From contig JBEAXZ010000001.1 in NCBI GenBank assembly GCA_041159565.1, positions 1 through 30,162 on the forward strand: DNA of 30,162 bases, read 5' to 3'. Position 1 is the stretch's first letter; each line of letters opens with the position of its first letter. The stretch comes from Actinomycetota bacterium. Lineage in GTDB: Bacteria > Actinomycetota > Actinomycetes > Nanopelagicales > Nanopelagicaceae. A model generated the notes under the pieces. That model was not told the DNA's origin, searched no databases, and saw only the letters and a program-made list of their open reading frames with translations. Shown in pieces: positions 9,348 through 10,943 of this stretch. A program made the translations under genes and the position numbers.

Positions 9348-9926
9348 TTAGATGAAACTCATCCCATCGATGCGAATAGTCGCGCAATCGCGGGTGTTTT
9401 CCTGCTTAAAATGCTCTGATTCCTGCATTTGCCAGAGAATCATGTGATTTTGAATGTAATCACCATCACGCCGTAGAACTCGATTTAAACCAACCTCAGC
9501 TTCAATATCAATCCAAATGAGCTGGTCTAAATATTTGCGTACCGCCCGTTGCCCAGATCCAACCCCTTCGAGAATTAAGAGATCTGGAACCATGAGTCTT
9601 TGTAGTTCACCGTACTTCATGTTTAGCCAATCAAACTTACGGTATTCGAATGACTTACCTTCACTAACTGGCTTTGCGATACCAATCTCTAAGTTCTTAG
9701 TTAATGTGACACTGAGTGCGTTATCCCAACCGTCATATAGGTCATCCATATGAACTACTTCAACCTTTAGATCGGAGTAGTTACTCTGCAGCTTTTTGGC
9801 CAGGGTGGTCTTGCCCGCGCCCGCAGGACCATCGATCGCGATTATCCGAGAAAATCTACTTCGTCTTTCACCAGTCTCTACTGTTGAAACAACATCGGAA
9901 AGGGATATAGCTGAACTCTCAGTCAT
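9348..9926 (-). CDS. Uridine-kinase-like P-loop small-molecule kinase, substrate unknown
   Basis: Walker A DGPAGAGKTT, HMDDLYDGW and ILEGVGS. ATGA overlap with the upstream Pnu transporter. Confidence 0.8.
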   Translation of the reverse strand: MTESSAISLSDVVSTVETGERRSRFSRIIAIDGPAGAGKTTLAKKLQSNYSDLKVEVVHMDDLYDGWDNALSVTLTKNLEIGIAKPVSEGKSFEYRKFDWLNMKYGELQRLMVPDLLILEGVGSGQRAVRKYLDQLIWIDIEAEVGLNRVLRRDGDYIQNHMILWQMQESEHFKQENTRDCATIRIDGMSFI

Positions 9927-10504
9927 AGTTGAGTCTTCTGCTGCAATTTGCGCCAGCTAAACCAACCAAAGATTGCGAGAATGGTTAGCGCAACGTAAAG
10001 AACTGCAGTAAACCAATACTTTTGATTTGAGTAGTGATAAGTGGCAAATAGATTTATGCCAATCCATAAACTCCAAGCTTCGTGGCGCTGTAAGACCATA
10101 ACAATTTGTGCGACTGTGCTGGAAACCAATAGGAATGAGTCTGGCCTAGATGCTGCTGCTCCAATGTCAGAGAGAATCGGAGCGCTAACCAACCACATGC
10201 CGATCAGAGCCAGCGCCCACATACCGCGTTCCTTGTTGCTCATATATTTAGGTTGGGCACCAGTGGCATTCCATCCAAACCAGCCCCAAACCGCGGCTGA
10301 AATGAAAACAATCTGCAATAAGGCGCTGGCTAATAGATCAACCTCATAAAAAAAGATTCCGTACAAGGTGCTGCTTATTACCCACCAAGGCCAGGCGATT
10401 CTCTTACCTAAAGCCCCGAGAGTTACCGCAATAAAAGATGCAATTACAGAGGCAAACTCCAAATAGGTAACGCCATAACCCCAAGCGGTGAAGAAAACAG
10501 ACAT
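9923..10504 (-). CDS. pnuC: PnuC-family vitamin transporter (substrate unresolved: thiamine, a thiamine precursor, or nicotinamide riboside)
   Basis: Multi-TM protein with AWPWW, LLQ, STVAQ and the Pnu signature WxxWxxxN (WSLWIGIN). The true start is ATG 10504 (SD GGGAG 6 nt upstream); the track start at 10528 lies inside the riboswitch. Confidence 0.85.
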   Translation of the reverse strand: MSVFFTAWGYGVTYLEFASVIASFIAVTLGALGKRIAWPWWVISSTLYGIFFYEVDLLASALLQIVFISAAVWGWFGWNATGAQPKYMSNKERGMWALALIGMWLVSAPILSDIGAAASRPDSFLLVSSTVAQIVMVLQRHEAWSLWIGINLFATYHYSNQKYWFTAVLYVALTILAIFGWFSWRKLQQKTQL

Positions 10505-10507
10505 GAT

Positions 10508-10590
10508 TAGCTCCCTTCCAATTCGCATTACCGAACTGGTCTGACGGTCGACCCGCAGGTCCTCTCAGCCAACTTTTGGCTCCCGATTGG
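10508..10590 (-). promoter_or_regulatory. TPP-riboswitch-like element with non-canonical P4/P5
   Basis: The minus strand reads CCAAU-CGGGAGCCAAAAGUUGGC-UGAGA-G-GACCUGCGGGUC-GACCG-UCAG-ACCAGUUCGGUAAUGCGAAUUGGAAGGGAGC. It has P2 CGG/CCG, P3 GCCAA/UUGGC, the invariant UGAGA, P3a GACC/GGUC, L5 GUAAUG, and a 3' GAAGGGAG that is also the pnuC SD. Confidence 0.85.
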
Positions 10591-10595
10591 AATAG

Positions 10596-10605
10596 AGATT
10601 AACAT
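10596..10605. promoter_or_regulatory. Overlapping divergent -10 hexamers for the riboswitch-pnuC unit and crtYc
   Basis: Minus-strand TAATCT (10601-10596) is about 7 nt before the aptamer 5' end. Plus-strand TAACAT (10600-10605) is 5 nt before GTG 10611. Confidence 0.55.
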
Positions 10606-10610
10606 AAGAC

Positions 10611-10943
10611 GTGCTCCAATACAGTTACTTCGCCATGCTGGCCTTTACAGTGGTTGGGTCTTTTTGGCTGGAATTTATTTTCAAAGTAGGTGTATTGCGA
10701 AGGATGAAAAGGGCTTTACTGAGCATTATCCCTACCGCAACTATTTTTCTGATTTGGGATTACTACGCAGTTTACTCTGGACACTGGTTTTTCGATAAGC
10801 AACAGGTTGTCGGAGTTTATGGTCCCTCTGGCATACCGCTTGAGGAGTTTCTATTTTTCTTGGTAGTTCCGCTAGCTGCTTTGATGACAATTGAAGCGGT
10901 TCGCGCCGTTAAGAAACACTGGTCATTTGGAGATGAAATATGA
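10611..10943 (+). CDS. crtYc: Heterodimeric lycopene cyclase subunit (CrtYc-like)
   Basis: Small membrane protein with FLIWD, WFF and IPLEEFLFF. Lies in the carotenoid cluster and overlaps the next gene (ATGA). Confidence 0.85.
   Translation: MLQYSYFAMLAFTVVGSFWLEFIFKVGVLRRMKRALLSIIPTATIFLIWDYYAVYSGHWFFDKQQVVGVYGPSGIPLEEFLFFLVVPLAALMTIEAVRAVKKHWSFGDEI

What the first reader, a model, noticed from the sequence alone, without database searches (positions are those of the whole stretch)
10508..10590. TPP-like riboswitch with an intact pyrimidine sensor but a remodelled pyrophosphate sensor: possible altered-ligand variant
Seen in sequence: the 5' half is textbook (CGGGAGC, P3, UGAGA, P3a, ACCG) and L5 GUAAUG is kept. 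The canonical actinobacterial 3' half, ACC-UGA-(P5)-CGWAGGGAG, reads here ACC-AG-UUCG-GUAAUG-CGAA-UUG-GAAGGGAG. The U that pairs in P4 is A, the J4/5 A is missing, the conserved J5/4 C is G, and extra bases are inserted. CCAGUUCG/CGAAUUGG can therefore form one continuous 8-bp hairpin with no internal loop. Alternatively the 5' (CC)AAU can pair with AUU(GG) as P1, removing P4. Established knowledge: the J4/5-J5/4 internal loop binds the Mg2+-pyrophosphate of TPP, while UGAGA binds the HMP ring. Inference: the RNA may sense unphosphorylated thiamine, HMP or TMP, or use a different switching mechanism on the embedded SD (GGGAG, 6 nt before ATG 10504).
Basis: partly seen in the sequence, partly recalled or inferred. 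Interest (0 to 1): 0.78.

Follow-up and report, generated by a model that had tools for sequence, protein, structure and literature searches.

The report
Loop-less thiamine riboswitch before PnuT
This is a real, lineage-wide derivative of the vitamin-B1 (TPP) riboswitch that has lost its pyrophosphate-binding loop and controls the only thiamine uptake operon of the abundant freshwater acI Actinobacteria; such variants were briefly reported in 2017, so it is an informative example and not a new class.

Summary
On the minus strand (core 10517-10586) lies a TPP-type aptamer with an intact pyrimidine pocket and L5. Both strands of the J4/5-J5/4 internal loop are deleted, so P4-P5 is one 8-bp hairpin. 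Rfam RF00059 scores it 38.1 bits, below the gathering score of 54.3.

It is not decay. The same architecture is in 149 of 151 genomes of the order and in at least 119 species-level acI/Nanopelagicales records, one copy per genome. It always stands before PnuT plus an overlapping P-loop kinase (72 of 72 loci with enough sequence). Two other actinobacterial families have loop-less forms before PnuT, with compensatory changes that prove the helix. Canonical aptamers in larger genomes of the same family precede ThiO, ThiC, CytX and a thiamine ABC binding protein.

Closed genomes lack TPK, ThiE, ThiD and ThiK but keep ThiL, so the kinase is a candidate thiamine kinase.

McCown et al. 2017 already mention P4-P5-mutated TPP variants that bind thiamin, TMP and TPP alike, and Kang et al. 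2017 noted the acI THI element. This scan met the theme before on other DNA (e1-5126852, e1-3913920). Verdict: new member of a known kind, moderate interest.

The parts
10596..10604 (-). Candidate extended -10 promoter element (TG-n-TAATCT). It predicts a transcription start about 10587-10590, 0-5 nt before P2.
Evidence: The only invariant or near-invariant columns upstream of the aptamer in 38 sequences spell G..TA...T. The element lies 7-10 nt from P2 in all genera read by eye. The simple sigma-70 scan found no -35/-10 pair, so this is an inference.
10517..10586 (-). Aptamer core of the TPP-riboswitch derivative (P2, P3, J3-2, P3a, J2-4, continuous P4-P5)
   Evidence: RF00059 at 38.1 bits, below the gathering score. 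Own model R1 scores it 89.2 bits. The structure is supported by covariation.
10563..10568 (-). J3-2 CUGAGA, the pyrimidine (HMP-ring) sensor
   Evidence: Invariant in all 36 aligned variants and identical in canonical aptamers of the same family.
10518..10539 (-). Continuous 8-bp P4-P5 hairpin (CCAGUUCG / CGAAUUGG) capped by L5 GUAAUG (10526-10531). The canonical 2x2 internal loop is absent.
   Evidence: The cmscan alignment shows both loop strands deleted. Pair 3 is AU 28, GC 4, CG 1, UA 1; pair 4 is GU 26, GC 6, AU 1, UA 1; pair 6 is UA 24, CG 9.
10511..10519 (-). Purine tract GGAAGGGAG. It holds the last two P4 bases and the Shine-Dalgarno core GGGAG (10511-10515), 6 nt before the start codon.
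   Evidence: Read from the sequence. The tract abuts P4 in every variant sequence.
9923..10504 (-). PnuC-family facilitator, predicted thiamine transporter PnuT (193 aa from AUG 10504)
   Evidence: PF04973 at E 3.2e-34 and TIGR01528 at 76 bits. Always the first gene after the element. PnuT assignment follows Kang 2017.
9348..9926 (-). P-loop small-molecule kinase overlapping the pnuT stop (ATGA); candidate thiamine kinase
   Evidence: PRK/uridine-kinase family hits. AlphaFold model with pLDDT 90. Nearest folds are uridine-cytidine kinase, PRK and PanK at TM 0.6-0.7 and 16-21% identity. Present in 72 of 72 loci with room. TPK, ThiE, ThiD and ThiK were not found while ThiL is present in 5 near-complete genomes.

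Best explanation
The stretch is a functional, vertically inherited derivative of the TPP riboswitch. It sits at, or within a few bases of, the 5' end of the pnuT-kinase mRNA of acI (Nanopelagicales) Actinobacteria. The half that recognises the aminopyrimidine ring of thiamine is intact (P2/P3, CUGAGA, and L5 for docking on P3). The 2x2 internal loop that holds the Mg2+-pyrophosphate in canonical aptamers (thiM A61, U62 / C77, G78, from my own knowledge of the structures) has been deleted, which leaves a plain 8-bp P4-P5 hairpin. Most likely the RNA still binds the thiamine moiety. Having lost the pyrophosphate site, it probably reads thiamine, TMP and TPP with little discrimination, acting as a sensor of the whole thiamine pool and not of TPP alone. 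When occupied, the compact fold hinders ribosome access to the Shine-Dalgarno tract, which begins 2 nt after P4. That lowers translation of the thiamine facilitator PnuT and of the translationally coupled P-loop kinase, which probably traps thiamine as TMP for ThiL. Shown here: the anatomy, the conservation, the covariation, the gene linkage and the pathway gene content. Inferred: the ligand, the relaxed selectivity, the direction of control, the transcription start and the kinase substrate.
For: Anatomy and sub-threshold RF00059 match with both loop strands deleted. The leader is conserved in 34 of 36 genomes of the genus. It is in 149 of 151 genomes of the order, with a clean score gap between variant (59.6 bits or more) and canonical (50.9 bits or less) under model R1. 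It is in at least 119 species-level acI records. Covariation supports all four helices, including the continuous P4-P5. Every variant precedes PnuT, and 72 of 72 loci with room show element, PnuT, kinase in that order. Canonical aptamers in the same family precede ThiO, ThiC, CytX and a thiamine ABC binding protein, and those genomes lack a close PnuT. Loop-less forms also precede PnuT in two other families. TPK, ThiE, ThiD and ThiK were not found while ThiL is present. acI strains are thiamine auxotrophs with a THI element before pnuC-like genes (PMC5301498). PnuT carries thiamine but not TMP or TPP and relies on trapping by a kinase (PMC5749112). P4-P5-mutated TPP variants are reported to bind thiamin about as well as TMP and TPP (PMC5473149). 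Outside L5 and the CC/GG pairs, the helix sequence is not conserved between families, which argues against a new specific pocket in that arm.
Against: No binding or expression data exist for this RNA. The 2017 remark gives no sequences, so it is unknown whether its variants include this architecture. Within the order the P4-P5 sequence is nearly invariant and keeps a G-U wobble at the position of thiM G60, which could still hold a metal-bridged phosphate. A loop-less variant precedes thiO in a genome that also has canonical aptamers, which fits ordinary TPP sensing as well. No conserved P1 or anti-SD helix was found, so the way binding reaches the SD is not shown. NCBIfam names the transporter PnuC (nicotinamide riboside). 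In family f52 the kinase behind PnuT resembles the NadR ribosylnicotinamide-kinase domain.
Confidence: 0.55

Rival explanations
1. It is still an essentially TPP-selective riboswitch. The pyrophosphate is held in another way, for example by hydrated Mg2+ in the groove at the conserved A-U / G-U step of the shortened arm, and only the architecture has changed.
For: TPP is the end product that canonical switches on transporter genes sense. The G at the thiM G60 position is kept, as a G-U wobble, in 26 of 34 distinct sequences. The P4-P5 sequence is nearly invariant within the order. Loop-less or altered forms also precede thiO and CytX.
Against: The two residues that contact the pyrophosphate directly in solved structures (C77, G78; own knowledge) are deleted. 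The G-U is replaced by G-C, A-U or U-A in other lineages, so no conserved metal site is evident. McCown 2017 reports that P4-P5 mutants lose discrimination.
Confidence: 0.27
2. It is a true specificity switch. The aptamer prefers unphosphorylated thiamine or TMP, the expected product of the operon's own kinase, and binds TPP worse. That would make it a distinct ligand class.
For: The operon's kinase has a phosphoryl-transfer P-loop fold, and ThiL is the only thiamine enzyme found, so TMP is the immediate product. The arm is shortened by two layers, which could suit a shorter ligand.
Against: There is no evidence for any element that would exclude TPP. The only published remark describes similar, not reversed, affinities.
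Confidence: 0.1
3. The ligand is not thiamine-derived. The operon would be a nicotinamide-riboside uptake unit (PnuC plus a riboside kinase), and the TPP fold would have been re-purposed for NR, NMN or another compound, or for the free pyrimidine HMP.
For: TIGR01528 (PnuC) scores above its cut-off. The kinase fold is nearest to nucleoside kinases. The f52 kinase resembles NadR-RNK.
Against: The HMP-ring pocket is unchanged. These genomes have no other recognised thiamine transporter and are thiamine auxotrophs. ThiL is retained without any other source of TMP. The Pnu HMMs do not separate PnuT from PnuC.
Confidence: 0.05
4. It is a decaying, non-functional remnant of a TPP riboswitch or a sequencing or assembly artefact.
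For: It scores below the Rfam threshold.
Against: It is present and structurally maintained, with compensatory changes, in hundreds of independently assembled genomes, including closed ones.
Confidence: 0.02

Closest known systems
TPP riboswitch / THI element (Rfam RF00059; e.g. E. coli thiM, and the ThiO/ThiC/CytX/ThiB leaders of larger Nanopelagicaceae genomes seen here)
   Same: Same P2-P3-J3/2(CUGAGA)-P3a-P2' sensor arm, same J2-4 ...ACC, same L5 (G/A)UAAUG, same placement of the SD right after P4, and a thiamine-related downstream gene.
   Different: The J4/5-J5/4 internal loop is missing on both strands. The third P4 pair is flipped. No conserved P1 is found. The score of 38 bits is below the gathering score of 54.3, so Rfam-based annotation misses it.
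TPP riboswitch variants with mutations in the P4-P5 pyrophosphate-binding core (McCown et al. 2017, RNA 23:995, citing Roth et al. in preparation)
   Same: The defining trait is the same: the pyrophosphate-binding core is altered while the rest of the aptamer is kept. They occur in many bacteria and sometimes beside canonical copies in one genome (seen here in G340).
   Different: No sequences or architectures of those variants are available in the library searched, so identity with this loop-deletion form, its acI distribution and its PnuT-kinase linkage are not documented there.
THI element upstream of pnuC-like (PnuT) genes in acI genomes (Kang et al. 2017, Sci Rep 7:42252)
   Same: The same locus type in the same lineage; they found it with RF00059 and proposed PnuT.
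   Different: They treated it as an ordinary TPP riboswitch. The missing loop, the coupled kinase and the ThiL-only pathway logic are not described in the passages read.
Bacteroidetes OMthi-pnuT-tnr3 operon under a canonical TPP riboswitch (Costliow and Degnan 2017; scan note e1-1413736)
   Same: A riboswitch-controlled PnuT with a trapping kinase.
   Different: There the kinase is a thiamine pyrophosphokinase that makes TPP directly, and the aptamer is reported as canonical. Here the kinase is a P-loop phosphotransferase and the aptamer lacks the pyrophosphate loop. I did not test the Bacteroidetes side.

Membership tests
TPP riboswitch (RF00059) | Score at or above the Rfam gathering threshold (54.3 bits) | tested here: not met
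   38.1 bits. Canonical family members score 55-72 bits.
TPP riboswitch (RF00059) | Pyrimidine-sensor arm: P2, P3, J3-2 CUGAGA, P3a | tested here: met
   Aligned without gaps to the model. CUGAGA is invariant, and P3 and P3a covary.
TPP riboswitch (RF00059) | Pyrophosphate-sensor internal loop J4/5-J5/4 between P4 and P5 | tested here: not met
   Both strands are deleted in the cmscan alignment. The continuous helix is supported by covariation.
TPP riboswitch (RF00059) | L5 loop (UAAU) for the L5-P3 tertiary contact | tested here: met
   GUAAUG or AUAAUG in all variants. The contact itself is not testable here.
TPP riboswitch (RF00059) | P1 helix closing the three-way junction | tested here: inconclusive
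   cmscan marks the P1 pairs as non-canonical. The 5' tails are not conserved between genera. The conserved -10-like element 7-10 nt before P2 suggests that the 5' strand is hardly transcribed. No read evidence was obtained.
TPP riboswitch (RF00059) | Selective binding of TPP over TMP and thiamine | not testable with these tools
   Needs in-line probing or ITC.
P4-P5-mutated TPP variants with relaxed specificity (McCown 2017) | Mutated pyrophosphate-binding core in an otherwise typical TPP aptamer | tested here: met
   definition from PMC5473149.
P4-P5-mutated TPP variants with relaxed specificity (McCown 2017) | Similar affinity for thiamin, TMP and TPP | not testable with these tools
   Only stated in the paper for its own, unpublished set.
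NAD+-II (pnuC motif) and other Rfam riboswitches associated with pnuC | Match to any other Rfam riboswitch model in the leader | tested here: not met
   Only RF00059 matches the leader. The other weak hits are chance-level and lie elsewhere.
HMP-PP riboswitch (thiS motif) | Small terminator-embedded aptamer before thiS | tested here: not met
   No Rfam hit, no terminator in the leader, and the downstream gene is a Pnu transporter.

The most novel reading that the evidence does not exclude
The acI element would be a distinct specificity class of the TPP fold. It would be tuned to unphosphorylated thiamine or to TMP (the product of its own operon's kinase) and not to TPP. It would work without a P1 helix as a 5'-terminal aptamer whose P4 arm abuts the ribosome-binding site. 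It would be paired with a previously unrecognised P-loop thiamine kinase family that, with ThiL, is the whole vitamin-B1 pathway of the most abundant freshwater bacteria. An even more radical reading, a re-purposing for nicotinamide riboside or NMN, is not excluded, but I give it under 5%.
Probability: 0.15. Interest if true: 0.7.

Novelty: new member of a known kind. Interest (0 to 1): 0.47.

Why it matters
acI/Nanopelagicales are among the most abundant freshwater bacteria and are thiamine auxotrophs. This element is their only recognisable thiamine-responsive regulator, and standard Rfam annotation misses it. If it reads the thiamine pool and not TPP alone, it shows how a streamlined cell couples a passive vitamin channel, a trapping kinase and one RNA sensor. 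It would also supply a natural, compact thiamine aptamer and a well-sampled, covarying example of the P4-P5 variant group, which has so far been mentioned only in passing. The linked kinase is a testable candidate for the thiamine kinase step, for which no known enzyme was found in these genomes.

Tried and rejected
- **Long P1 (CUCUAUUCC with GGAAGGGAG) that would sequester the SD.** It is attractive in this genus and in some others. I rejected it as a conserved feature because the 5' tails differ even within a genus and overlap the conserved -10-like element.
It is complementary here, but P4 is proven by four different pair types at two positions. My fixed-register test was off by one base for the window and gives no clean statistic, so I rely on the visible diversity of the tails.
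- **SD pairing with Phe codons early in the coding region, and CCAA pairing with the Trp-codon UUGG.** Both appear in the minimum-free-energy fold. The distance from the start codon to the FTAW motif varies from 4 to 15 codons between genera, so I treat both as chance.
- **Mapping the transcript start from reads.** Only assembled contigs of relatives covering the aptamer core were laid, which is uninformative.
- **Sigma-70 promoter scan.** No hit.
- **Listing weak RF00059 hits across the class.** I sampled five weak-hit genomes instead.
- **C132 of the assembly as a paralogue.** Rejected: it has the same synteny, so it is a co-binned relative's orthologous locus.
- **Looking for the published form of Roth et al.** Not found in the library.

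Full report
**What is there.** The element lies on the minus strand. The order of parts, 5' to 3', is as follows.
- A short, variable 5' tail.
- P2 (CGG, pairing with CCG).
- P3 (GCCAA-AAG-UUGGC).
- The invariant CUGAGA.
- P3a (GGACCU-GC-GGGUC).
- GA, then the P2 3' strand.
- J2-4 ending in ACC.
- The hairpin CCAGUUCG-GUAAUG-CGAAUUGG.
- AA, then GGGAG, then six bases, then AUG 10504.

Infernal finds no Rfam family at the gathering thresholds in the whole window. With permissive thresholds RF00059 (TPP) matches 10499-10596 at 38.1 bits against a gathering score of 54.3. In that alignment the two model columns of J4/5 (AU) and the two of J5/4 (CG) are deleted. P4 reads CCAG/UUGG and P5 reads UUCG/CGAA. 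The precise description is a clean deletion of the 2x2 internal loop plus a compensated flip of the third P4 pair.

**Surroundings.**
- The next gene is a PnuC-family transporter (PF04973, E 3.2e-34).
- Its stop overlaps the start of a 192-aa P-loop kinase of the PRK/uridine-kinase type.
- A PASTA Ser/Thr kinase follows.
- Upstream and divergent are lycopene cyclase subunits and phytoene synthase.
- The genome is a 0.98-Mb, 72.7%-complete assembly.
- Protein relatives are named Candidatus Nanopelagicaceae.

**It is not a one-off.**
- The leader is found in 34 of 36 genomes of the genus, with the 3' half almost invariant.
- Over 101 genomes of the family, 81 have an RF00059-like hit but only 11 exceed the gathering score. 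Closed single-contig genomes have exactly one hit, at 30-46 bits.
- Reading the 30 best loci shows a complete split. Hits over the threshold keep ACCUGAU...CGUAGGGAG. All sub-threshold hits of the ACCAG type have loop-less helices.
- Every one of those loop-less hits precedes a PnuC-family ORF. The canonical ones precede ThiO, ThiC, a CytX-type HMP permease and a thiamine ABC binding protein.
- A covariance model of the variant (R1) hits 149 of 151 genomes of the order. Variants score 59.6 bits or more and canonical aptamers 50.9 bits or less.
- An exact-pattern scan finds at least 119 species-level records. Essentially all are acI, Planktophila or Nanopelagicus MAGs and single-cell genomes.
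- Of 80 such loci, all 72 with enough downstream DNA show element, PnuT, kinase in that order.
- The larger genomes of the family that carry only canonical aptamers lack a close PnuT.
- The second sub-threshold hit in this assembly (contig C132) has the same synteny. It is a co-binned relative's orthologue, not a paralogue.

**Structure.** On the family alignment 95.6% of cells pair, against 12-46% when partners are slid. I then looked outside the order. Close PnuT orthologues occur in two other actinobacterial families. Their leaders also lack the canonical loop, with 0-1 unpaired bases on the 5' strand and a 0-3-base bulge on the 3' strand. In those genomes this is the only RF00059-like element. 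With these sequences included, 5 of the 8 P4-P5 pairs change on both sides:
- The third pair is AU 28, GC 4, CG 1, UA 1.
- The fourth pair is GU 26, GC 6, AU 1, UA 1.

Outside L5 and the CC/GG pairs the helix sequence is not conserved between families. That argues against a new sequence-specific pocket in this arm.

**Expression platform.**
- The SD tract abuts P4 in all sequences.
- I could not find a conserved P1. cmscan marks its P1 pairs as non-canonical, and the 5' tails differ widely.
- The only conserved upstream columns spell an extended -10 (TG-n-TAnnnT) 7-10 nt before P2. This suggests that the mRNA starts 0-5 nt before the aptamer.
- That start is an inference. The sigma-70 scan found nothing and the read lay was uninformative.
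- Pyrimidine-rich tails complementary to the SD exist in this genus and in several others, but they overlap the -10 and are not conserved.

I therefore propose translational repression by occlusion of the SD next to the folded aptamer, with the detailed switch unresolved.

**Pathway logic.** In five near-complete genomes of the family:
- Thiamine pyrophosphokinase, ThiE, ThiD and ThiK were not found above their cut-offs.
- ThiL was found in all five, above its cut-off in four.

ThiL's substrate TMP thus has no known source except phosphorylation of imported thiamine. PnuT proteins are facilitators that carry thiamine but not TMP or TPP and depend on trapping by a kinase (PMC5749112). The co-transcribed kinase models confidently (pLDDT 90). 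Its nearest folds are uridine-cytidine kinase, phosphoribulokinase and pantothenate kinase at 16-21% identity, which are phosphoryl-transfer enzymes acting on hydroxyl groups. It is a reasonable candidate thiamine kinase, though this is not shown. Two cautions apply. NCBIfam calls the transporter PnuC. In family f52 a different, NadR-RNK-like kinase follows PnuT.

**What is known.**
- Kang et al. 2017 already reported a THI element before pnuC-like genes in thiamine-auxotrophic acI strains and proposed PnuT.
- McCown et al. 2017 state that a large collection of TPP variants mutated in the P4-P5 pyrophosphate-binding core exists in many bacteria. They bind thiamin about as well as TMP and TPP, may read the whole pool, and sometimes occur beside canonical copies.
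- I found no later paper that describes them.
- I saw the same-genome situation in G340, where three canonical aptamers coexist with one loop-less one before ThiO.
- A further P4-P5 variant precedes CytX in G389.
- Earlier notes of this scan reached the same view on other DNA (e1-5126852, e1-3913920).

**Verdict.** This is a real, strongly conserved riboswitch derivative. The altered-selectivity reading is the most likely one but remains untested, and the concept is already in the literature. What this analysis adds:
- The exact architecture.
- Its order-wide, single-copy distribution.
- The strict link to PnuT plus a kinase.
- The ThiL-only pathway logic.
- The likely absence of P1.

**Note on data.** The class-level samples included genomes flagged as unpublished (G042, G245, G247, G251, G257). 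They enter only the tallies and the statement that class-level hits of 50.5 bits or less are mostly canonical. No specific claim rests on them.

Noticed in passing
window 9348-9926 (-): A 192-aa P-loop kinase is translationally coupled to pnuT. It has a uridine-cytidine-kinase/PRK/PanK-like fold and no close solved relative. Together with ThiL-only genomes, this makes it a candidate for an undescribed thiamine kinase family.
   Followed up: partly
G000 contig C132 = L002:459-1614: The assembly holds a second copy of the whole locus (phytoene synthase, variant element, PnuT, kinase, Ser/Thr kinase). It is only about 50% identical at the protein level, so the bin contains DNA of a second acI population.
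   Followed up: partly
window 10596-10613: The 106-nt gap between the crtYc start (10611, + strand) and the pnuT start is almost filled by the aptamer. The candidate -10 of the riboswitch promoter lies only a few bases from the divergent gene's start codon.
   Followed up: partly
L161:1501-1610 (G340) and L287:189-299 (G389): Other P4-P5-remodelled TPP aptamers in the class. One precedes ThiO in a genome that also has three canonical aptamers. One precedes a CytX-type HMP permease and keeps the canonical 3' CGUAGGGAG while losing the 5' UGAU.
   Followed up: partly
L131:878-1447 (G293, family f52): Behind PnuT sits a P-loop kinase unrelated to the window's; it weakly resembles the NadR ribosylnicotinamide-kinase domain. 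Two different kinases have therefore been recruited to the same position.
   Followed up: partly
window 10526-10528 (-): The conserved L5 (GUAAUG) contains an AUG in frame with pnuT, so mechanical ORF calling gives a 201-aa product starting inside the aptamer. The SD-preceded AUG at 10504 is the likely start.
   Followed up: no
window 10612-10647 (-): There is a weak SAM/SAH riboswitch match (16.9 bits against a gathering score of 40, E 0.24) opposite the crtYc coding region. It is most likely chance.
   Followed up: no
L164, L169, L171, L174, L175, L197: Several public MAG records that carry the acI-type element are labelled Bifidobacterium or Clavibacter. These are probably taxonomic mislabels of freshwater acI bins.
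   Followed up: no
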